Below, in pieces: positions 2,827 through 31,558 of a DNA stretch of 64,000 nt. Position 1 is the stretch's first letter. The number at the start of each line of letters is the position of its first letter. A program made the translations under genes and the position numbers. The DNA comes from Methanomassiliicoccaceae archaeon (GTDB taxonomy: Archaea; Thermoplasmatota; Thermoplasmata; Methanomassiliicoccales; Methanomethylophilaceae): NCBI GenBank assembly GCA_003560875.1, contig PWJQ01000035.1, positions 7,182 through 71,181 on the forward strand. The letters run 5' to 3'. The notes under the pieces are model-generated. The model saw only the letters and a list, made by a program, of their open reading frames with translations, was not told the DNA's origin and did not search any database.

Positions 2827-3003
2827 GACCTTTGGAACGGCTCACATCGATAAAACCGCTTTCATGGCCACAATGTTTTTCGGACCGGAGAAGTTTTAAA
2901 TAGTCTGCAATAATCCGTCAAAGGTAGTGACGGGACTAGTCCCGTTGGAGATGTGCCCCCTAAGGGGTGAATCCATAAACGCCGGAAACGGCAGGTGATA
3001 CAA

Positions 3004-4542: not shown

Positions 4543-4630
4543 TGGTGCAGGGGAAGGGATTCGAACCCTCGAACGTCTGCACGACTAGACCCTGAATCTA
4601 GCACCTTTGGCCAGGCTCGGTAACCCCTGC
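4543..4630 (-). tRNA. tRNA-Leu (anticodon CAG), long variable arm, CCA encoded
   Basis: The reverse complement folds as a cloverleaf. Acceptor is GCAGGGG/CCCCTGC. Anticodon stem CTAGA/TCTAG carries loop TTCAGGG. There is a long extra arm and T-loop GGTTCGAATCC, then discriminator A and CCA. Confidence 0.93.
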
Positions 4631-19366: not shown

Positions 19367-19442
19367 GGGCTCGTGGTCTAGGGGTTATGACGTCGCCTTG
19401 ACATGGCGGAGGTCGCCGGTTCAAATCCGGCCGAGCCCACCA
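19367..19442 (+). tRNA. tRNA-Val (anticodon GAC), CCA encoded
   Basis: Acceptor GGGCTCG/CGAGCCC. Anticodon stem TCGCC/GGCGG carries loop TTGACAT. T-loop is GGTTCAAATCC, followed by discriminator A and CCA. Confidence 0.93.
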
Positions 19443-23428: not shown

Positions 23429-23503
23429 GCGACTGTAGTCTAGCGGTTAGGACCGGGGCTTCCCAAGCCTCTAACCCGGGTTCAAATCCCGGCAGTCGCA
23501 CCA
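23429..23503 (+). tRNA. tRNA-Gly (anticodon CCC), CCA encoded
   Basis: Acceptor GCGACTG/CAGTCGC. Anticodon stem GGGGC/GCCTC carries loop TTCCCAA. T-loop is GGTTCAAATCC, followed by discriminator A and CCA. Confidence 0.92.
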
Positions 23504-24528: not shown

Positions 24529-25560
24529 ATGATTGAGGTAGATGGTTCCAGAGGTGAAGGGGGAGGGCAGATAGTGCGTACCTCCATCGCCCTGGCCGCT
24601 CTGACCGGCGAGGAAGTCAGACTCACCAACATACGCGAGAACCGCCCTACCCAGGGACTCTCCCGTCAGCATTGCACCGCCATCGAAGCGGTGGCCGATA
24701 TGAACGAGTCCTGGGTGTCCGGCAACGTCCCCGGATCTCGGGAGATGGTCTTCCGCCCCGGGGTGGGCGGTAGAGGGAATGTCTGCATGGACGTCGGTAG
24801 CGCCGGCAGCATAAGCCTGGTCCTGCAGGCCATGCTGCTCTGCGCCCAATCCCATGATTCCCGGGTCACAATGGACATCAAGGGCGGGACCAACGTGAAA
24901 TGGGCCCCGCCCATCGACTTCTATCCTCAGGTCCTGTTCCCTCTTCTTTCGAAAATGGGCATAAGGGCGGAGATGGAGATAATCAGCCGCGGTTTCTACC
25001 CCCAGGGCCAAGGCCATGTGCGGGTGACCTTCGACCCGGCCAAAAGGATCGAGCCTTTGCGCATCGATGATTTGGGGGAGATACGTGAGGTCAATGCGGT
25101 GAGCTACTGCCAGAACCTCCCGCCGCGCATAGTGGACGAGATGGCCTGGTCCTGTCAGGAGATGCTCTCCGACATCGCCGTTCTCAATGCGGAGAGGGAC
25201 ATCCGTCAGGGCGGCTCCACCGGGGCGGGAATCTCCCTGGTGGCCGTCCACCGCAACGGCATGGTCGGCGCCAGTGCGCTAGGCTCTCGCGCAAACCCCG
25301 CCCGTTTGGTCGGCGAGGAGGCCGCCAAGGATCTGATCGTGGAATTGGAGGGAGGAGGCACCTTGGACGTCCATGCCGCCGACCAGCTGGTCCCCTACAT
25401 GGCGCTGGCGGAGGGCGGTAGCGTGTTCAGGGTCTGGCGCATCAGCAAGCACCTCCTGAGCCAGATGGACCTTCTGGAGACCTTCCTCGATGTGAAATTC
25501 CATATCAGCCGTCTCCCCAAAGGATACCGTATCGAGGTCGAACCGGGAGGGAAGGGATGA
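24529..25560 (+). CDS. rtcA: RNA 3'-terminal phosphate cyclase
   Basis: DGSRGEGGGQIVRTSIALAALTG and NRPTQGLSRQH (adenylylated His) are diagnostic. Confidence 0.92.
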   Translation: MIEVDGSRGEGGGQIVRTSIALAALTGEEVRLTNIRENRPTQGLSRQHCTAIEAVADMNESWVSGNVPGSREMVFRPGVGGRGNVCMDVGSAGSISLVLQAMLLCAQSHDSRVTMDIKGGTNVKWAPPIDFYPQVLFPLLSKMGIRAEMEIISRGFYPQGQGHVRVTFDPAKRIEPLRIDDLGEIREVNAVSYCQNLPPRIVDEMAWSCQEMLSDIAVLNAERDIRQGGSTGAGISLVAVHRNGMVGASALGSRANPARLVGEEAAKDLIVELEGGGTLDVHAADQLVPYMALAEGGSVFRVWRISKHLLSQMDLLETFLDVKFHISRLPKGYRIEVEPGGKG

Positions 25561-26180
25561 TCAGGGTTATCGTGAACTGCGCCATGAGCGCCGATGGCAA
25601 GATAGCGGGCTGCGACCGCCGACAGACCAGGATCTCCACACCGGAGGACATGCAACGGGTCAAGGCCCTGCGGCGGTCGGTGGATGCGATAATGGTCGGC
25701 GTAGGGACCGTGCTGGCGGATGATCCCCATCTCACGGTGAAACACCTCGGCCCGGATGAGAACCCGGTACGCGTGGTGATAGATTCCAAAGGCAGAACGC
25801 CGGATTCAGCATTGGTGCTGGACGGTCGCGCCCGGACCTTGGTGTTCCACGGCGAGGGATGCGACCGCATGTGGGAGGGCGCGGAGTCATTCGTCTGCGG
25901 ACGTGACCGTGTCGACCTGCGGCGTATGCTCGGTATCCTGGAGGAGATGGGCATCGCAACGCTCATGGTGGAGGGGGGCGGCGAGTTGATAGCCTCCCTT
26001 TTCGACGAGGACCTGGTGGACGAGTACAACGTCTTCATCGGCCCGATGGTCATCGGCGGCCGGTGCTCCCCCACGCCCGCGGACGGCGACGGAAGGGATG
26101 GTAAGGATGCCATCCGTCTGCGCTTCGCCGGTTCAGAGGTCCTGGGCGAGGGCGTCCTACTGAGATATCTACGTATTTGA
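25557..26180 (+). CDS. 2,5-diamino-6-ribosylamino-4(3H)-pyrimidinone 5'-phosphate reductase (RibD C-terminal domain type, ArfC-like)
   Basis: VIVNCAMSADGKIA, VDAIMVGVGTVLADDPHLTV and LMVEGGGEL. It aligns by eye with the M. jannaschii MJ0671-type reductase. ATGA overlap with rtcA. Confidence 0.82.
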   Translation: MIRVIVNCAMSADGKIAGCDRRQTRISTPEDMQRVKALRRSVDAIMVGVGTVLADDPHLTVKHLGPDENPVRVVIDSKGRTPDSALVLDGRARTLVFHGEGCDRMWEGAESFVCGRDRVDLRRMLGILEEMGIATLMVEGGGELIASLFDEDLVDEYNVFIGPMVIGGRCSPTPADGDGRDGKDAIRLRFAGSEVLGEGVLLRYLRI

Positions 26181-26191
26181 ACACCGATTCG

Positions 26192-26212
26192 AACATTTTA
26201 TGTACAAATGTT
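26192..26212 (+). promoter_or_regulatory. Perfect 7-bp inverted repeat AACATTT-N7-AAATGTT overlapping a TATA-like element upstream of the DapA-Fae genes
   Basis: The sequence is aacattt tatgtac aaatgtt, located 21-41 nt upstream of ATG 26233. It is a candidate operator/promoter. Confidence 0.4.
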
Positions 26213-26232: not shown

Positions 26233-27660
26233 ATGTTCAAGGAACCCATCTTCAGCGGAGTCTACGCATCGCTGGTAACACCTTTCGACGCCGATGAGGG
26301 CGTCGACGAGTCCGCCCTGAGGAAACTCATCTCACGCATGGTCGGAGAGGTGGACGGACTGGTGGTCTGTGGTGCCGAAGGGGAGTTCGAATACCTCTCC
26401 GATACGGAGCGACGCAGGGTGATCGCCGTTGCCGTGGACGAGGTGGCGGGAAGGGTGCCGTTGATCGTCGGCACCGGCTCGGCTAGCACCCGCCTGGCTT
26501 GTCAACTGTCATCCTTCGCCGAAGAAGCGGGGGCCGATGCGGTCATCGTTTCCACACCCTACTTCCTGTTCCCTGCCGACAAGGGATATCATCAACACTT
26601 CCTCGAGGTATCAAATTCCACATCCTTGCCGATGATCGTCTACAATCCCATGGAGACCTGCATCGGTCGCATACCCCGGAAGGTCCTGGAGGACATATCC
26701 TACTTGGATAACGTGGTTGCACTGGCGGATTCCTCGGGCGACATGCCGTACCTCATGGAGGTCATCGAGAAGGTGAAGGGCAGGATGGACGTCCTGGTGA
26801 GTAACGAGGAGACCGTGTATCCCTCCCTGTGCGTCGGATGCTCGGGTATGATACTGGGTAGCGCCCAGGTCTATCCGTCGTTGTGGAGGGGGATGTTCAA
26901 TTCCTTCGCGGATGGTGACGACGATCAGTCACGCATCCTACAGGCCAGGGTGCAGAAGCTCTCCCGCCTGTTCATGAGACACGGTCTGGCGGTGCCTTTG
27001 AAGGCGGCACTGAGGATGATCGGTGAACCGGTGGGCAAGGCCCGTGGTCCTTTGAAGGAGGGGGGCTCCCTGCTGCATGAGGACCGGGAGGAGATCAAGG
27101 TCGAACTGGAGAGGATCGGTATGTTGGAGCGCGCCGGCCAGTCCGTAACGGAATACGACATGCCCTTGAACGAGAGGTTCAGCGACATAGGTATCAGTCC
27201 CGCGGACATCCAGAGTCATGGCGTACGCCTGTCGTCGGCATCCCATGGCAGCGGGGAGGAGCGGGCGGTCATCGATATCGCCCTGGGCCGGAAGGACGGC
27301 CTCCTGGGCGACGTTTTCGCATCCCAGCTCGTATATCTCGATCACGGCAAGGAATCATTGCCCATCGTCCTGGAGCCGAACCTCGCCACCCTGCCACCGT
27401 GCCTGATCATCCCGGTCATGGAGCTGCGCAGCATGCGCCAGGCGAACATGGTCTACGGTCCGGCACAGGGCGCGATAGCCAAGGCCATCGTGGACCTCTG
27501 TGCCGAGGGCATGGTACCGCAGAGGGTGATGGATGAATGCATAATGCTGGCACGGGTGTTCATGGACCCCAACGCCCTCGACCGTTCCTCGATCTACGTG
27601 AACTTCCATCAGGCCACCCGCAAGGCCATGGAGGAACTGCTCAAGGAGGTGCCGCAATGA
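26233..27660 (+). CDS. Fusion protein: DapA/DHDPS-fold domain (Schiff-base Lys absent) + C-terminal formaldehyde-activating-enzyme (Fae)-like domain, paralogue 1
   Basis: The N-terminal ~300 aa show the DHDPS pattern (SLVTPFD, GRVPLIVGTGS, GADAVIVSTPYF, IVYN) but read VVALADSSGD where the family has IxGIKExxG. The C-terminal ~145 aa align with Fae (LEPNLATLPPCLIIP, YGPAQGAIAKAIVDLCAEGMVP, ARVFMDPNA...VNFHQATRKAM). ATG 26233 has GGTGAG upstream. The track ORF starts at 26200. Confidence 0.8.
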   Translation: MFKEPIFSGVYASLVTPFDADEGVDESALRKLISRMVGEVDGLVVCGAEGEFEYLSDTERRRVIAVAVDEVAGRVPLIVGTGSASTRLACQLSSFAEEAGADAVIVSTPYFLFPADKGYHQHFLEVSNSTSLPMIVYNPMETCIGRIPRKVLEDISYLDNVVALADSSGDMPYLMEVIEKVKGRMDVLVSNEETVYPSLCVGCSGMILGSAQVYPSLWRGMFNSFADGDDDQSRILQARVQKLSRLFMRHGLAVPLKAALRMIGEPVGKARGPLKEGGSLLHEDREEIKVELERIGMLERAGQSVTEYDMPLNERFSDIGISPADIQSHGVRLSSASHGSGEERAVIDIALGRKDGLLGDVFASQLVYLDHGKESLPIVLEPNLATLPPCLIIPVMELRSMRQANMVYGPAQGAIAKAIVDLCAEGMVPQRVMDECIMLARVFMDPNALDRSSIYVNFHQATRKAMEELLKEVPQ

Positions 27661-29105
27661 GGAGCTCCGACCTGAGAGGCGTCTTCGCGCCTCTGGTAAC
27701 ACCCTTCGACGAAGGTCTGAAGGTCGACGACGAGCGGTTGCGTGGACATGTGAGATGGCTCATGGGCCGCGTCGAAGGCCTGGTCTGCACCTCGGACGTC
27801 GGGGAGTTCGTACATTTGACTGAGACTGAGAGGGTCGAGGTCTGGAGATCGGTGATGGATGAGGTGGACGGGCGGGTTCCAGTGATCGTCGGCAGCGGTT
27901 CGTCGAGCACCAAGGTGGCCAAGGAACTCACCCTCAAGGCCGCTGAGATGGGAGTCGATGCCGCCCTTGTGGTCGACCCCTACTTCTACCGCAGCAGCGG
28001 CAAGGAACGCTACGAGCACTTCCAGGCCCTGGACGCCCTTGGCCTCCCGTTGATAAACCACAACGTCTGCCGCTACACCGGTGCGGAGAGGGAATGGTGG
28101 ACCACCGAGGGCATAGCGGCCTTGGAGAATGTCATCGGCATATTGGATGCCACCGGGGACATGGCCTACACCGCCACCTTGACAGAGAAGGTGGACGACG
28201 CCGCGATTCTGGCGGGCAAGGACGAGGTGGCGGCGATGGCACTGGCACAAGGCTGCAGCGCCGCCGTACCGCCCACCGCCAACTTCATACCCGACCTGTG
28301 GTCGGAGATATATGCGGCGATAGGTGCCAACGACCTCGACTCTGCCCGTTCTTTGCAGATGAGGATACAGAAGACATGTCGCATATCCCACACCTGCCCC
28401 CACCATGTGGCCAAGGCCGCCCTGTGGATGATGGGGCGGGACATGGGACGACCTGCACCCCCGGCGCTGCCCGGCGACAACTTCCTGCATGAGGACTGGG
28501 ATGAGCTGCGCCATCAGTTAGCAGGGCTCGGATTGCTGGACACCAAGAAGGTTCGCATGACAGTCGGTGATGCGTCCTGGGACAGCACCGTGGCATCGAT
28601 ACCGCACACCCCTGACTCCGTCGACCTGCGGATGCTGATCGGCGAAGCCTATTCCGGTCCGTCGGCGCATGAGGCGGCACACGTTGACCTGCTCATCGGC
28701 AGCGACGATGGGCCGGTGGGGAGGGCCTACGACGCGTCGTTGCTAAATGACCGGGAGGGCAGGGTCAGGGAGCTGATGTCGATGCCCCGTTGCATGGTCG
28801 TGCCAACGGTGACAGCGAGGACGGCGAAGCAGAAGAGACATATGGAGCTGGCCTCCGCCGGGGTGGTCCAGGCGGTGGAGGAGGCGGTCGGTGACGGTTT
28901 CCTGCCCCGCGACATGCTGGACCGTATCCGCTTGATCGCCAACGTGTTCGTGCACCCCGGCGCTGCCAACGAGAGGCGCATCCGGGTGAACAACTACAAG
29001 GCCATGCGCAACGCCATAAGGAGGGCGGTGGAGGGAAGACCCCACGCCGAGGAACTGGTGTGGCTGAAGGACTCTGTGAGACACCCCACCCGCTACACGC
29101 CTTAA
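27657..29105 (+). CDS. Fusion protein: DapA/DHDPS-fold domain (Schiff-base Lys absent) + C-terminal Fae-like domain, paralogue 2
   Basis: ATGA overlap with paralogue 1, and AAGGAGGTG lies 5 nt upstream of ATG 27657. N-terminal PLVTPFD, GRVPVIVGSGS, GVDAALVVDPYF, and VIGILDATGD in place of the K motif. The C-terminal domain matches Fae strongly at both ends (MLIGEAYSG...EAAHVDLLIGSDDGPVG; NVFVHPGA...NNYKAMRNAIRRAVEGRP...HPT). Confidence 0.8.
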   Translation: MRSSDLRGVFAPLVTPFDEGLKVDDERLRGHVRWLMGRVEGLVCTSDVGEFVHLTETERVEVWRSVMDEVDGRVPVIVGSGSSSTKVAKELTLKAAEMGVDAALVVDPYFYRSSGKERYEHFQALDALGLPLINHNVCRYTGAEREWWTTEGIAALENVIGILDATGDMAYTATLTEKVDDAAILAGKDEVAAMALAQGCSAAVPPTANFIPDLWSEIYAAIGANDLDSARSLQMRIQKTCRISHTCPHHVAKAALWMMGRDMGRPAPPALPGDNFLHEDWDELRHQLAGLGLLDTKKVRMTVGDASWDSTVASIPHTPDSVDLRMLIGEAYSGPSAHEAAHVDLLIGSDDGPVGRAYDASLLNDREGRVRELMSMPRCMVVPTVTARTAKQKRHMELASAGVVQAVEEAVGDGFLPRDMLDRIRLIANVFVHPGAANERRIRVNNYKAMRNAIRRAVEGRPHAEELVWLKDSVRHPTRYTP

Positions 29106-29836
29106 TAGATGGGCTCGATGATGAACTTGCAGTAGTTGTAGGCGATACCGAAGCACTCGTTCTCCGAGATGCGGAAACGACGACCGGTCTTCTCCTCCAG
29201 TACGGCCTTGAAGACGCCTTCGTGGAACATGCACAGCTTATTGCCGGCCTCGGCGTTGGTCTCGTATTCGTCACGGATGATTATGGTTAGTGGCACGAAG
29301 GTGTAGACACATACCTCGCCCAGATCGTGCATCTCATAGAACTCCTGCAGTTCGGAGACGATGTTCTCCACATCGGTGGATTCCATCTGAGTGGAGAGGG
29401 CCTTACCGACCTCGCTGCCCACCTCGTACATGGCCGGGTCGATGGCCAGTCCGATGGCTTCCAATCCTATCAGTATCGAGCGCATCAGTCCTTTCAGGAA
29501 CGATGACGGTGTCCCGGCGGAATCCAGGACGGTCTGGTGCATGTACTCCATCATCTCCTCCGAGGGGTTCGTGGCCTTGGCCACCGGTTTGGAGGATAGG
29601 AAGAATATCTTACGGCGGTTGTCGGAGGGGTCGTCCCTTGAGAAGACCAGTTTCTCCTTCACCATCTTATCCAGATGAACTGACAAGGTGGATTGGGCCT
29701 TGCCGGTTATGTTCGCGATCTCCGTCAGGGACAGGTCCTTAACCTGCAGTTCGGCTAAAATCCTCTGCCGTACTGGGTTACATATCTGTTTCAAACCGGA
29801 ACTGGTCGAATAGATTTCGAATGCAGGATTGTCCAT
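29102..29836 (-). CDS. ArsR-family winged-HTH regulator with C-terminal V4R domain (MsvR-like architecture)
   Basis: N-terminal ICNPVRQRILAEL...LSLTEIANITGKAQSTLSVHLDKMVKEKLV (ArsR wHTH). The C-terminal domain has four Cys (EVCVYTF, KLCMFHEG, ENECFG, NYCKF) in a V4R-like pattern. Its stop overlaps the stop of 27657..29105 by 4 nt (convergent). Confidence 0.75.
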   Translation of the reverse strand: MDNPAFEIYSTSSGLKQICNPVRQRILAELQVKDLSLTEIANITGKAQSTLSVHLDKMVKEKLVFSRDDPSDNRRKIFFLSSKPVAKATNPSEEMMEYMHQTVLDSAGTPSSFLKGLMRSILIGLEAIGLAIDPAMYEVGSEVGKALSTQMESTDVENIVSELQEFYEMHDLGEVCVYTFVPLTIIIRDEYETNAEAGNKLCMFHEGVFKAVLEEKTGRRFRISENECFGIAYNYCKFIIEPIY

Positions 29837-29946: not shown

Positions 29947-30948
29947 ATGAGGTTCAAGGACAACGGAGAGGTGAGAGATATCAGGGCCCTGTGGTTCGAG
30001 AACAACGAGCTGGTCATGATGGACCAGCGACTGTTGCCCCAGAAGGTTGTTTTTCTCCGATACAAGGAGCACACCGAGGTGGCCAAGGCCATAAGGGACA
30101 TGGTCACCCGCGGTGCCCCCTCGATAGGCGCCGCGGCGGCCTACGGGATGACCCTGGCGGCATTGAACGGTGTCGACCTCTCCGCTGCCGCCACCGCCCT
30201 CAAGGCCGCGAGGCCCACCGCCAACGACCTGTTCTACGCGGTGGACCATATGGCAGAGAGGATATCCTGCGGGGATGACCCGGTGCGGGTCGCCGACTCT
30301 TACGCCTCAGCGATCATAGACAACTGCACGGCGATAGGCGTCCATGGCGCACCGTTGATAAGGGACGGGTACACGGTGATGACCCACTGCAACGCCGGGG
30401 CCTTGGCCACGGTGGACGTGGGGACCGCCCTGGCCCCCATCCGTGCAGCATGGTCGGAGGGCCGGAGGTTCAAGGTTCTGGTATCAGAGACCAGACCCCG
30501 TCTCCAAGGCCTACAGCTCACCGCATGGGAACTTGTCCAGGAGGACATCGACCACGCGGTGATCGTCGACGGTGCCTCGGGCCACTTCATGCGCAAAGGT
30601 GTGGACATGGTCATCGTGGGGGCCGACCGCATCGTGGCCAACGGGGATTTCGCCAACAAGGTGGGCACTTATGAGAAAGCGGTCATCGCCAAGGAGCTGG
30701 GCGTACCGTTCTACGTCGCCGCACCCGTCTCCACCTTTGATTTCGAGACTGCGGGCGGTGATGAGATCGACATAGAGGAGCGGGACGGGGATGAGATCAG
30801 CACCATCGCGGGTGCGTCGGTGGCGCCGGCCGGGGTCCAGGTACTGAACCCGGCCTTCGATGTCACCCCCGCCCGCTATGTCACTGCTTACATAACCGAG
30901 AAGGGCATACTCAGGGCCGAGGACATCGATACCATGAGGAGGGAATGA
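29947..30948 (+). CDS. mtnA: Methylthioribose-1-phosphate (5-deoxyribose-1-phosphate) isomerase, eIF-2B alpha/beta/delta-related
   Basis: MMDQRLLP, MVTRGAPSIGAAAAYG, THCNAGALAT and VGADRIVANGDFANKVGTY are typical of MtnA. Confidence 0.85.
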   Translation: MRFKDNGEVRDIRALWFENNELVMMDQRLLPQKVVFLRYKEHTEVAKAIRDMVTRGAPSIGAAAAYGMTLAALNGVDLSAAATALKAARPTANDLFYAVDHMAERISCGDDPVRVADSYASAIIDNCTAIGVHGAPLIRDGYTVMTHCNAGALATVDVGTALAPIRAAWSEGRRFKVLVSETRPRLQGLQLTAWELVQEDIDHAVIVDGASGHFMRKGVDMVIVGADRIVANGDFANKVGTYEKAVIAKELGVPFYVAAPVSTFDFETAGGDEIDIEERDGDEISTIAGASVAPAGVQVLNPAFDVTPARYVTAYITEKGILRAEDIDTMRRE

Positions 30949-30949
30949 G

Positions 30950-31558
30950 ATGGACGAACGTGGACATCGGGACGAATTGGCGAACATCTGCAAATTACTA
31001 TACGACCGCAACCTGACATTCTCCTCCGGCGGGAACATGAGCGTGAGGGTCGATCCAGAGCACATAGTGATCACCCCTTCTGGTAGGAACAAGGGCATGT
31101 TGCGCGGAGAGGATATGATCAAGGTCAACCTGGACGGCAAGGTGGTCGGTGAGGGGAGGCCGTCCATCGAGGTGGGGATGCACCTCATATACTACCGCAT
31201 GCGCGATGACGTCGGGGCCATCGTCCATTGCCATCCCCCTTACTGCACATCATTGGCCATCATGGGGGAGAGACTCAAGAGCAATCTGACCCCGGAGGGT
31301 GCTGTTCTTCTGGGAGAGGTGCCCATCGCACCATACGGGACGCCGGGCACCACCCACCTGGTGGACTCGGTGAAGGATCACGTTCACAGCGACTGCCTGA
31401 TAATGGAGAGGCACGGGGCGTTGGCGACGGGCGCCGACCTGATATCCGCCTACAACCGCATGGAGGAGTTGGAGTTCCACGCCCGACTGCAGTTCATCAT
31501 CGGCGACAGGGCCCGGGAGTTCGATGCCGAGGAGATCGAGAAAATAAAACAGGGATGA
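30950..31558 (+). CDS. Class II aldolase/adducin-domain protein (MtnB dehydratase or 5-(methylthio/deoxy)ribulose-1-P aldolase type)
   Basis: SSGGNMSVR, ITPSG, VHCHPPY and MERHGALATG show the class II aldolase fold with its His ligands. AGGAGGGAA lies upstream and the start is 1 nt after the mtnA stop. Confidence 0.8.
   Translation: MDERGHRDELANICKLLYDRNLTFSSGGNMSVRVDPEHIVITPSGRNKGMLRGEDMIKVNLDGKVVGEGRPSIEVGMHLIYYRMRDDVGAIVHCHPPYCTSLAIMGERLKSNLTPEGAVLLGEVPIAPYGTPGTTHLVDSVKDHVHSDCLIMERHGALATGADLISAYNRMEELEFHARLQFIIGDRAREFDAEEIEKIKQG

What the first reader, a model, noticed from the sequence alone, without database searches (positions are those of the whole stretch)
27226..29105. The two Fae-like domains retain complementary halves of the Fae signature, suggesting an obligate hetero-oligomer
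Paralogue 2 keeps the N-terminal Fae segment, including the conserved His (EAAHVDLLIGSDDGPVG; His codon 28680..28682), and the C-terminal tail. Its central segment is unrecognisable: it has no PNL...KP..L and no FGPAQ. Paralogue 1 is the reverse. The His position is Val (ERAVIDIALG; codon 27268..27270), but the central LEPNLATLPPCLIIP ... YGPAQGAIAKAIVDLCAEGMVP block is well conserved. From memory, Fae is a homopentamer with substrate sites formed between neighbouring subunits. Complementary decay of interface halves, together with ATGA translational coupling, is what one expects when two paralogues co-assemble so that only heterologous interfaces stay functional.
Basis: inference. Interest (0 to 1): 0.65.

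Follow-up and report, generated by a model that had tools for sequence, protein, structure and literature searches.

The report
Paired aldolase–Fae fusion genes, split active-site motifs
Two adjacent genes each fuse an aldolase-like domain to a formaldehyde-activating (Fae-like) domain; across about 130 archaeal and bacterial loci each copy strictly keeps the Fae active-site residues that the other has lost, so the two proteins probably work as one uncharacterised complex, though this is not proven.

Summary
ORF1 (26233..27660) has Val where Fae has the catalytic His, but keeps PNL and YGPAQ and lacks the C-terminal arm. ORF2 (27657..29105) keeps the His and the arm but lacks PNL and GPAQ. The genes overlap by ATGA.

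Both are C-terminal domains of DHDPS–Fae fusion proteins. The pattern is not local decay. Each gene belongs to its own old orthologue family (T1, T2), found in Methanomassiliicoccales, Thermoplasmata, Asgard, Bathy- and Baldrarchaea and Chloroflexota.

- **Reciprocal conservation:** T2 keeps His22, Asp24, Phe119, Asn134 and His164 in 120/120 representatives. T1 keeps Pro58, Asn59, Gly85, Pro86 and Gln88 in 120/120. Each is variable or deleted where the other is invariant.
- **Linkage:** T1 lies directly upstream of T2 in about 130 of about 140 informative loci. Their distance matrices correlate at r = 0.94.

The hetero-oligomer idea is therefore plausible but unproven. I could not map residues to subunit faces. 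A five-fold ring cannot alternate two subunits. Some T1 keep the His, and one Anaerolineae clade has T2 unlinked from T1.

Unexpectedly, the window's lineage has lost the aldolase Schiff-base Lys in both genes, yet both stay under strong purifying selection (dN/dS 0.06–0.10).

The parts
26233..27660 (+). ORF1 = T1 subunit (475 aa; an alternative ATG at 26200 gives 486 aa): a DHDPS-like domain fused to a Fae-like domain
   Evidence: Pfam DHDPS 1.5e-55 and Fae 4.2e-32. Orthologue family of at least 120 cluster representatives. Homologues align from the 26233 start.
26251..27060 (+). ORF1 DHDPS-like TIM-barrel domain. Catalytic set is degenerate: GAEGE at 26371..26385 in place of GTTGE; Ala at 26725..26727 in place of the Schiff-base Lys161. 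Tyr133 is kept (26641..26643).
   Evidence: 118/120 orthologues have Lys. Only the window clade has Ala.
27244..27657 (+). ORF1 Fae-like domain. Val at the His22 position (27268..27270). PNL 27376..27384 and YGPAQ 27454..27468 are kept. There is no C-terminal arm.
   Evidence: AF2 model pLDDT 89.2.
27645..27660 (+). GGAGGTG Shine-Dalgarno-like motif followed by the ATGA stop/start overlap of ORF1 and ORF2
   Evidence: Read directly from the sequence. The same -4 overlap occurs in L001 and L002.
27657..29105 (+). ORF2 = T2 subunit (482 aa): a DHDPS-like domain fused to a Fae-like domain
   Evidence: Pfam DHDPS 2.8e-46 and Fae 3.4e-30. Orthologue family. AF2 pLDDT 91.8, pTM 0.91.
27672..28472 (+). 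ORF2 DHDPS-like TIM-barrel domain. Catalytic set is degenerate: SDVGE at 27792..27806; His in place of Tyr133 at 28059..28061; Leu in place of Lys161 at 28143..28145.
   Evidence: The fold matches DHDPS structures with TM 0.9.
28542..28625 (+). ORF2 inter-domain linker, predicted with high confidence to form a beta-hairpin or meander (residues 296-323). The ORF1 linker is mostly coil.
   Evidence: DSSP on the AF2 models.
28638..29102 (+). ORF2 Fae-like domain. His22 equivalent at 28680..28682, FVHP 28947..28958, NNYKA 28989..29003, C-terminal arm ending in RHPTRYTP 29079..29102. The PNL loop is deleted and there is no GPAQ.

Best explanation
**What is there (shown).** ORF1 and ORF2 are the window's copies of an old, co-inherited gene pair, T1 followed by T2. 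Both encode a class-I-aldolase-like (DHDPS-family) barrel fused to a Fae-like domain.

**Proposed mechanism (inferred).** After one ancient duplication of an already non-canonical DHDPS-Fae fusion, the two Fae-like domains divided the canonical Fae site between them.

- T2 keeps the beta-sheet side: Glu11, Ala21, His22 (the proposed acid catalyst), Asp24, Val72/Thr73, Phe119 and Asn134. It also keeps the C-terminal arm.
- T1 keeps the loop and helix side: the Pro58-Asn59-Leu60 loop, Gly85-Pro86-x-Gln88 and Asp97.

In Fae the pterin lies in a cleft between two neighbouring subunits. The simplest reading is therefore that T1 and T2 associate and form a composite Fae-like site from T2's His face and T1's Gln88 face. 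The likely assembly runs through a DHDPS-type dimer or tetramer, giving an (alpha-beta)n complex rather than a C5 ring.

**Proposed chemistry (by analogy).** The analogy is with the archaeal Fae-Hps fusion. In most lineages the complex would couple a pyruvate/2-oxo-acid aldol or retro-aldol step involving formaldehyde to transfer of that formaldehyde to or from a reduced pterin. Tetrahydrofolate or another carrier is more likely than H4MPT in many hosts.

**The window's lineage.** In this soda-lake Methanomassiliicoccales lineage both aldolase domains have lost the Schiff-base Lys and other catalytic residues but remain under purifying selection. Here they would serve only as scaffold or ligand-binding modules for the retained Fae-like part.

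**Status of each step.** Shown: the architecture, the two families, reciprocal conservation, synteny, co-inheritance, loss of aldolase residues and purifying selection. Inferred: physical association, a composite site, the identity of the substrates.
For: - **Architecture.** Both proteins are DHDPS+Fae fusions.
- **Two separate families.** Each has its own orthologues at 40-50% identity. The two window proteins are only 32% identical to each other. Within a genome, T1 and T2 are 30-47% identical.
- **Reciprocal invariance in 120 cluster representatives each.** T2 has H22, D24, F119, H121, N134 and H164 in 120/120. T1 has P58, N59, G85, P86 and Q88 in 120/120. T1 position 22 takes at least 8 different residues. 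T2 positions 85, 86 and 88 are variable and the PNL loop is deleted in 112/120.
- **Same pattern against a diverse reference.** It holds against 35 canonical Fae sequences.
- **Shared derived states.** K71->T, N70->P and W122->P occur in both families, pointing to one non-canonical fused ancestor.
- **Synteny.**
- **Co-inheritance.** T1 and T2 distance matrices correlate at r = 0.94 over 64 genomes spanning Archaea and Chloroflexota.
- **Window clade.** It keeps both Fae motif sets but lost K161 (to Ala and to Leu), T44/T45 and, in T2, Y133. dN/dS is 0.06-0.10 in the DHDPS and Fae domains of both genes (linkers 0.12-0.24).
- **Secondary-structure mapping.** T2-only residues fall mainly on strands and the arm. 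T1-only residues fall on loops and the long helix.
- **From my memory of Acharya et al. 2005 (JBC 280:13712; not held in the library).** Fae is a homopentamer. Methylene-H4MPT sits in a cleft between two adjacent subunits. The C-terminal arm becomes rigid on binding. Gln88 flips. His22 is the proposed acid catalyst.
Against: - No test of physical association or of a hetero- versus homo-interface was possible.
- Which subunit supplies His22 and which supplies Gln88 at a given Fae site was not verified from coordinates.
- A five-membered ring cannot alternate two subunit types.
- Counting all canonical conserved positions shows no excess complementarity (Fisher OR 1.8-2.0, p 0.2-0.5). Between 8 and 18 conserved positions, depending on the conservation cutoff used (13 at 80%), were lost by both copies, including Lys71. 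I recall Lys71 as a ligand-binding residue.
- Seven T1 sequences keep His22: five Thermoplasmata/Methanomassiliicoccales, one Bathyarchaeota and one Anaerolineales.
- A clade of seven Anaerolineae species, plus three sporadic loci, has T2 without an adjacent T1. Two T1 loci lack a nearby T2.
- In most lineages both DHDPS domains look fully competent, so the proteins are not obligatorily dependent on each other for the aldolase part.
- Many host groups (Chloroflexota, Methanomassiliicoccales) are not known to make H4MPT (for Methanomassiliicoccales). The ligand is therefore unknown.
Confidence: 0.5

Rival explanations
1. The two proteins are functionally distinct enzymes of one pathway. Each is a homo-oligomer and they do not form a shared site. 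T2's Fae-like domain is the only catalytic one, with a pocket remodelled for a pterin other than H4MPT. T1's Fae-like domain is a non-catalytic ligand-binding or regulatory module, and T1's aldolase domain performs a different step.
For: - Both DHDPS domains keep a full catalytic set in 118/120 orthologues each, so each protein could be an enzyme on its own.
- T2 occurs without an adjacent T1 in a seven-species clade and keeps all its conserved residues there.
- Both copies lost Lys71 and Trp122, so the pocket differs from Fae in any case.
- Complementarity by position count is not significant.
- Many pairs are separated by 100-400 nt or by inserted genes.
Against: - T1's Pro58-Asn59, Gly85-Pro86 and Gln88 are invariant in 120/120. 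That is hard to explain for a domain with no pterin-type site.
- Neither domain alone has both the proposed catalyst His22 and the pterin-binding Gln88.
- Gene order and co-inheritance are tight across two domains of life.
- The window clade dropped the aldolase chemistry in both genes at once yet kept both Fae motif sets. This suggests one shared function.
Confidence: 0.3
2. The Fae-like domains carry out no formaldehyde or pterin chemistry. They are oligomerisation or scaffold modules that assemble DHDPS-like aldolases into a larger particle, for example rings or cages built from five-fold and two-fold contacts. The motif differences between T1 and T2 would reflect different packing roles.
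For: - The fusion joins a pentamer-forming fold to a dimer/tetramer-forming fold (established knowledge of Fae and DHDPS).
- Canonical ligand residue Lys71 is lost in both (its role is from my memory of database annotation).
- The hosts often lack the H4MPT pathway.
Against: - Absolute conservation of the proposed acid catalyst His22 with Asp24 in T2, and of Gln88 in T1, is typical of active-site residues rather than packing residues.
- In the window clade the aldolase residues are the ones that were lost, while the Fae motifs were kept. This is the opposite of what a pure scaffold role for the Fae domain predicts.
Confidence: 0.12
3. In this window the two genes are decaying remnants (pseudo-enzymes on the way to loss), and the pattern has no functional meaning.
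For: - Both DHDPS domains lack the Schiff-base Lys, and both proteins fall below NCBIfam's dapA and Fae cut-offs.
- The window clade sits on a long branch, especially for the DHDPS domains.
Against: - dN/dS is 0.06-0.10 in the DHDPS and Fae domains of both genes (linkers 0.12-0.24) against two relatives at dS 0.6-0.8.
- The reading frames are intact and of identical length in three genomes.
- AF2 confidence is high.
- The Fae motif pattern is the same as in about 130 other loci.
Confidence: 0.03

Closest known systems
Formaldehyde-activating enzyme Fae (PF08714; M. extorquens, PDB 1Y5Y/1Y60)
   Same: Both C-terminal domains match the Fae fold and profile. T2 keeps the His22/Asp24 motif and the C-terminal arm. 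T1 keeps the PNL loop and GPxQ.
   Different: - Neither domain has the full residue set.
- Both lack Lys71 and Trp122.
- Both are fused behind a DHDPS barrel.
- There are two paralogues rather than one homopentamer.
- The hosts are mostly not known H4MPT users.
- The window proteins score below NCBIfam's Fae cut-off: 107.8 and 113.9 against 118.05.
Bifunctional Fae-Hps of methanogenic archaea (NF009833; Goenrich et al. 2005, cited from memory)
   Same: A Fae domain is fused to a TIM-barrel aldolase that handles formaldehyde. This is the best functional analogy for why an aldolase and a Fae domain would share one chain.
   Different: - The domain order is reversed. Fae is N-terminal in Fae-Hps.
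- The partner there is hexulose-6-phosphate synthase, not a Schiff-base (class I, DHDPS-family) aldolase.
- Fae-Hps is a single gene with a complete Fae signature.
- Scores are 78-104 bits against a cut-off of 274.
DHDPS / N-acetylneuraminate lyase family of class I pyruvate aldolases (PF00701), including DapA
   Same: The N-terminal 290 residues match in sequence and fold. Orthologues keep Thr44, Thr45, Tyr133 and Lys161. Some orthologues pass NCBIfam's dapA cut-off, which explains the database name '4-hydroxy-tetrahydrodipicolinate synthase'.
   Different: - Arg138, which binds aspartate semialdehyde in DapA, is replaced by Val/Thr/Cys in all members.
- A Fae-like domain is appended.
- The window's two copies lack the Schiff-base Lys altogether.
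Heteromeric enzymes built from duplicated paralogues that each keep part of the ancestral function, for example the (alpha-beta)2 tRNA splicing endonuclease of Crenarchaeota (my own knowledge)
   Same: A duplicated gene pair is co-inherited, and each copy retains a different subset of the ancestral functional residues.
   Different: Association of T1 and T2 has not been shown. The example is an analogy of evolutionary logic only, with no sequence relationship.

Membership tests
Fae (formaldehyde-activating enzyme, EC 4.2.1.147) | Match to the Fae profile and fold | tested here: met
   PF08714 at 111.8 and 105.6 bits against a cut-off of 27. PDB 1Y5Y at E 1.7e-16 and 1.4e-19.
Fae (formaldehyde-activating enzyme, EC 4.2.1.147) | NCBIfam equivalog-domain score (TIGR03126, cut-off 118.05) | tested here: not met
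   ORF1 scores 107.8 and ORF2 113.9. Orthologues from other lineages pass in part, with scores of 111-140.
Fae (formaldehyde-activating enzyme, EC 4.2.1.147) | Catalytic His22 (role recalled from Acharya et al. 2005) | tested here: inconclusive
   Present in ORF2 (28680..28682) and in 120/120 T2. Absent in ORF1 (Val) and in about 90% of T1.
Fae (formaldehyde-activating enzyme, EC 4.2.1.147) | Pterin-contacting Gln88 within FGPAQ, and the PNL loop | tested here: inconclusive
   Present in ORF1 and in 120/120 T1. Absent in ORF2 and T2.
Fae (formaldehyde-activating enzyme, EC 4.2.1.147) | Lys71 (canonical K in 92% of 36 diverse Fae; ligand role recalled from database annotation) | tested here: not met
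   Thr in 100% of T2. Thr or another residue in T1, with 0% Lys.
Fae (formaldehyde-activating enzyme, EC 4.2.1.147) | Homopentamer with sites between identical neighbours; H4MPT as substrate | not testable with these tools
   No multimer prediction, coordinates or assay were available. Methanomassiliicoccales have an incomplete H4MPT branch (PMC10804542).
DHDPS-family class I aldolase | Match to the DHDPS profile and TIM-barrel fold | tested here: met
   PF00701 at 188.5 and 158 bits. Foldseek TM 0.9 to DHDPS structures.
DHDPS-family class I aldolase | Schiff-base Lys161 with Tyr133 and Thr44 (E. coli DapA numbering) | tested here: not met
   ORF1: Lys->Ala (26725..26727) and Thr44Thr45->AlaGlu. 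ORF2: Lys->Leu (28143..28145), Tyr133->His and ThrThr->AspVal. The feature is met in 118/120 orthologues of each family.
DapA (4-hydroxy-tetrahydrodipicolinate synthase) | NCBIfam TIGR00674 cut-off of 206.15, and Arg138 for aspartate-semialdehyde binding | tested here: not met
   ORF1 scores 175 and ORF2 130.3. Arg138 is replaced in all T1 and T2. Some orthologues pass the score only, at 218-226.
Fae-Hps bifunctional enzyme | N-terminal Fae plus C-terminal hexulose-6-phosphate synthase; NF009833 cut-off 274 | tested here: not met
   Scores are 103.6 and 77.9, covering the Fae part only. There is no Hps domain.
Heteromeric complex of subfunctionalised paralogues | Both genes co-occur and are co-inherited | tested here: met
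   At least 63 of about 68 informative genome loci and 67/69 informative metagenome loci carry both. r = 0.94 between the T1 and T2 distance matrices.
Heteromeric complex of subfunctionalised paralogues | Reciprocal loss of essential residues | tested here: met
   for the core residues. The result is not significant when all conserved positions are counted.
Heteromeric complex of subfunctionalised paralogues | Physical association, with lost residues on opposite faces of one interface | not testable with these tools
   Only single-chain AF2 summaries were available. The Fae structure paper is not in the library.

The most novel reading that the evidence does not exclude
T1 and T2, in many genomes together with the conserved 313-aa protein of unknown fold encoded just upstream, form a previously undescribed heteromeric enzyme. 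A Schiff-base aldolase and a split Fae-like site would together transfer a hydroxymethyl/formaldehyde unit between a reduced pterin (tetrahydrofolate in H4MPT-lacking hosts) and a 2-oxo acid. This would be a third, independent solution to the chemistry performed by PanB-type and SHMT-type enzymes. The window's lineage would then be a natural variant in which the aldolase half has become a pseudo-enzyme scaffold.
Probability: 0.2. Interest if true: 0.8.

Novelty: new variant of a known kind. Interest (0 to 1): 0.6.

Why it matters
If T1 and T2 form one complex, this would be a clear natural case of an active site that lies between identical subunits being divided between two paralogues after duplication. 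It would be conserved over at least 305 species-level genomes from Archaea and Chloroflexota.

It would also define a new enzyme architecture, a class I aldolase joined to an Fae-like domain, in anaerobes that mostly lack the methanopterin pathway. That points to unrecognised formaldehyde or C1-pterin chemistry in sediment microbes.

Current databases name these proteins 4-hydroxy-tetrahydrodipicolinate synthase. That name is probably wrong, and it could distort reconstructions of lysine biosynthesis and of formaldehyde metabolism from metagenome-assembled genomes.

Tried and rejected
- **Fae structure paper.** I looked for Acharya et al. 2005, or any text listing which subunit supplies which ligand residue. 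It is not in the library. The face mapping therefore rests on memory and on secondary-structure position only.
- **Literature on a DHDPS-Fae fusion.** Nothing was found.
- **Homologue search with M. extorquens Fae.** It returned only sequences at 74% identity or more (nearly all at least 78%), with named hits all Alphaproteobacteria. These were useless for defining deep conservation, so I replaced them with the representative-library search.
- **Statistical tests of complementarity.** Fisher on kept/lost positions and a runs test along the sequence were both non-significant. I do not claim that the overall pattern exceeds independent loss. I claim only that the core residues are reciprocally invariant.
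- **Pseudogene hypothesis for the window clade.** Rejected by dN/dS.
- **True DapA.** Rejected because Arg138 is absent and the scores fall below the cut-off.
- **Conserved upstream 313-aa protein.** No Pfam or PDB sequence match was found. Only a weak Peptidase_U32 hint at E 0.04 appeared in 2 of 9 members.
- **RNA evidence for co-transcription.** Only DNA metagenomes hold this sequence.
- **T1 elsewhere in genomes with a solitary T2.** tblastn within the fetched loci found none.


Full report
**What is in the window.** Two same-strand ORFs fill 26200/26233..27660 and 27657..29105. They overlap by ATGA, and a GGAGGTG motif lies 6 nt upstream of the second start. Both are two-domain proteins. 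An N-terminal DHDPS-family TIM barrel (PF00701; 1.5e-55 and 2.8e-46) is followed by a C-terminal Fae domain (PF08714; 4.2e-32 and 3.4e-30). The two proteins are 32% identical over their full length. The finding's coordinates (27226..29105) therefore cover the Fae-like tail of ORF1 and all of ORF2.

**Checking the observation.** I aligned both tails to the crystallised M. extorquens Fae (1Y5Y). ORF1 reads ERAVIDIALG against NEVAHIDLIIG, so His22 is Val (codon 27268..27270, GTC). ORF1 keeps LEPNL...P and YGPAQ, and it stops at about Fae residue 148. ORF2 reads EAAHVDLLIG (His codon 28680..28682, CAC). It has a 7-residue deletion where the PNL loop would be and has ELASAG in place of FGPAQHG. It keeps FVHP, NNYKA and the C-terminal RHP tail.

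**The pattern is a family trait.** Each ORF has its own orthologues.
- ORF2-like proteins (T2, about 490 aa) are 39-46% identical to ORF2.
- ORF1-like proteins (T1, about 475 aa) are 43-51% identical to ORF1.
- Both occur in Methanomassiliicoccales, Thermoplasmata, Promethearchaeota, Bathyarchaeota, Baldrarchaeum and, most often, Anaerolineae and other Chloroflexota.
- At least 305 species-level genomes encode a T2 relative.

Among 120 cluster representatives of each family:
- T2 has His22, Asp24, Phe119, His121, Asn134 and His164 in 120/120.
- At those positions T1 is variable (position 22: Q 92, then G, A, V, T, S, R, I ...) or lacks the segment altogether (the arm).
- T1 has Pro58, Asn59, Gly85, Pro86 and Gln88 in 120/120.
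- T2 has the 58-62 loop deleted in 112/120 and is variable at 85, 86 and 88.

The same picture appears against 35 diverse canonical Fae sequences taken from a search of 1.84 billion representatives. 'Unrecognisable' and 'decay' are therefore misleading. Much of T2's central segment is a conserved family-specific sequence, RP.TLLVPTVT.R, and T1's N-terminal segment is also constrained. Both families share derived states absent from canonical Fae (Asn70->Pro, Lys71->Thr, Trp122->Pro). The duplicated ancestor was thus already a non-canonical fusion.

**How strong the complementarity is.**
- Of the positions conserved in at least 80% of canonical Fae, 19 are kept by both families, 10 by T1 only, 12 by T2 only and 13 by neither. 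This does not differ from independent loss (Fisher OR about 2, p 0.27).
- T1-only and T2-only positions are not significantly segregated along the sequence (runs test p 0.14).
- The statistical case therefore does not rest on counts. It rests on absolute reciprocal invariance at the residues tied to catalysis and pterin binding.
- From my memory of Acharya et al. 2005: His22 is the proposed acid catalyst, Gln88 re-orients on coenzyme binding, the C-terminal arm becomes ordered on binding, and the coenzyme lies in a cleft between two adjacent subunits.
- On the AF2 models, T2-only residues lie mostly on beta-strands and the arm. T1-only residues lie on loops and the long helix. This fits two different faces of the monomer but does not prove it.

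**Do loci always carry both genes?**
- Starting from T2 in one genome per species, T1 lies directly upstream on the same strand in at least 63 of the roughly 68 loci with enough upstream sequence.
- Starting from T1 in metagenome contigs, T2 follows in 67 of 80. Eleven of the rest end at the contig edge, and two have 1-2.6 kb downstream without T2.
- Over 107 pairs the T1 stop to T2 start distance is an overlap in 13, 0-30 nt in 47, 31-100 nt in 5, 101-400 nt in 26 and over 400 nt in 16. Some of the largest gaps hold inserted genes.
- T1 and T2 pairwise distance matrices over 64 genomes correlate at r = 0.94. Within-genome T1-T2 identity is 30-47%. This indicates one old duplication and inheritance as a unit, including transfer between domains.
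- Exceptions exist. A clade of seven Anaerolineae species has T2 with unrelated neighbours, with up to 10 kb upstream checked. Three other loci have lost adjacency. I could not test whether T1 sits elsewhere in those genomes.

**An unexpected feature of the window's lineage.**
- In 118/120 representatives of each family the DHDPS domain keeps Thr44, Thr45 and Lys161, and nearly all keep Tyr133 (E. coli DapA numbering).
- The window and its two close relatives are soda-lake Methanomassiliicoccales MAGs (L001, L002; 88-89% identical). Their T1 reads GAEGE with Lys161->Ala. Their T2 reads SDVGE with Tyr133->His and Lys161->Leu.
- The genes are not decaying. dN/dS against both relatives is 0.06-0.07 (T1 DHDPS), 0.08-0.10 (T1 Fae), 0.08-0.09 (T2 DHDPS) and 0.08-0.09 (T2 Fae), at dS 0.6-0.8.
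- The DHDPS domains of this clade are 10-20 identity points more diverged from other lineages than is usual. The Fae domains are about 6-10 points more diverged.
- The aldolase chemistry was thus abandoned in both subunits. Both halves of the Fae motif set and the barrel itself were kept. This fits a model in which the barrels hold the two Fae-like domains together and the Fae-like part is the core function here.

**What the proteins are not.**
- They are not DapA. Arg138 is replaced in every T1 and T2. The window proteins score 175 and 130 against the dapA cut-off of 206. Some orthologues pass narrowly at 218-226, which explains their database name.
- They are not Fae-Hps.
- They are not full Fae equivalogs here: 107.8 and 113.9 against 118.05.
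- No paper in the searchable library mentions a DHDPS-Fae fusion.

**Most likely mechanism.** I propose that T1 and T2 associate, most plausibly through the DHDPS-type dimer/tetramer interface. T2 would supply the His22/Asp24 sheet face and the C-terminal arm. T1 would supply the PNL loop and the GPxQ helix face of one composite Fae-like pocket.
- A strict five-fold ring cannot alternate two subunit types. The assembly must therefore differ from Fae's pentamer, or only some interfaces are functional.
- By analogy with Fae-Hps, the ancestral role would be to couple an aldol or retro-aldol step involving formaldehyde to a pterin carrier.
- Lys71 and Trp122 are lost in both. Methanomassiliicoccales have an incomplete H4MPT branch but a tetrahydrofolate branch (PMC10804542). 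The carrier is therefore probably not H4MPT in many hosts.
- I put about 0.5 on a shared hetero-oligomeric site. The specific chemistry is considerably less certain.

**Rivals.**
- Two separate homo-oligomeric enzymes of one pathway, with only T2's Fae-like domain catalytic: 0.3.
- Fae-like domains acting purely as assembly modules: 0.12.
- Decay in this lineage: 0.03, contradicted.

**Verdict.** It passes the co-occurrence and family-wide-reciprocity tests, but the structural and biochemical tests remain to be done. The feature is an uncharacterised, widely distributed two-gene variant of known parts (Fae, DHDPS).

Noticed in passing
window 26371..26385, 26725..26727 (ORF1); 27792..27806, 28059..28061, 28143..28145 (ORF2): Both DHDPS-like domains of the window clade have lost the Schiff-base Lys and other catalytic residues, although 118/120 orthologues of each family keep them. 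Both genes remain under strong purifying selection (dN/dS 0.06-0.10).
   Followed up: yes
L008 7513..8508, L012 7541..8512, L015 2089..3165, L049 7574..8542, L064 5183..6142 and about 18 further loci: A very conserved protein of about 313 aa (79% mean column identity) lies directly upstream of T1 on the same strand in 22-24 of 80 genomes, both archaeal and bacterial. It has no Pfam or PDB sequence match, only a weak Peptidase_U32 hint. It is absent from the window and may be a third component.
   Followed up: partly
L017 3480..4400, L037 7455..8342, L064 7717..8574: A xylose-isomerase-like TIM-barrel gene (PF01261) is inserted between T1 and T2 in three Chloroflexota genomes.
   Followed up: partly
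L044 8394..9961; L070 3744..5131: Small genes sit between T1 and T2 that, by eye, resemble a nucleotidyltransferase/HEPN pair and a PIN-like gene. I ran no profile search on them. They look like mobile toxin-antitoxin cassettes that split the pair without removing either gene.
   Followed up: no
window 29102..29836 (-): A convergent gene encodes an ArsR-type HTH (HTH_5) fused to a V4R small-molecule-binding domain. Its 3' end overlaps the ORF2 stop by 4 nt (29102..29105). It is conserved at this position in seven Methanomassiliicoccales loci, followed by an IF-2B-family isomerase (29947..30948) and a class II aldolase (30950..31558).
   Followed up: partly
window 26200 vs 26233: The ORF1 start is ambiguous. 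Gene callers use either ATG 26200 (486 aa) or ATG 26233 (475 aa). Alignment with orthologues favours 26233.
   Followed up: partly
P0003, P0123, P0163 and many others: Public annotation names these fusion proteins '4-hydroxy-tetrahydrodipicolinate synthase' because some pass the dapA HMM cut-off narrowly. All lack Arg138, so the name is probably wrong.
   Followed up: partly
T1 and T2 position equivalent to E. coli DapA Tyr107: Tyr107 reaches into the neighbouring subunit's active site in DHDPS dimers. It is Phe in 115/120 T1 but Tyr in 79/120 T2. This asymmetry would matter only if the barrels form heterodimers.
   Followed up: no
window 25557..26180 (+): A RibD_C-family (dihydrofolate-reductase-like fold) gene ends 20-50 nt upstream of ORF1 on the same strand. 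I did not examine whether it is linked functionally to a pterin-dependent role.
   Followed up: no
window 2931..2978 (+); 4543..4630 (-); 19367..19442 (+); 23429..23503 (+): An eL15-Euryarchaeota ribosomal-protein leader (RF03144) and tRNA-Leu(CAG), tRNA-Val(GAC) and tRNA-Gly(CCC) genes. These are ordinary features consistent with an archaeal host.
   Followed up: no
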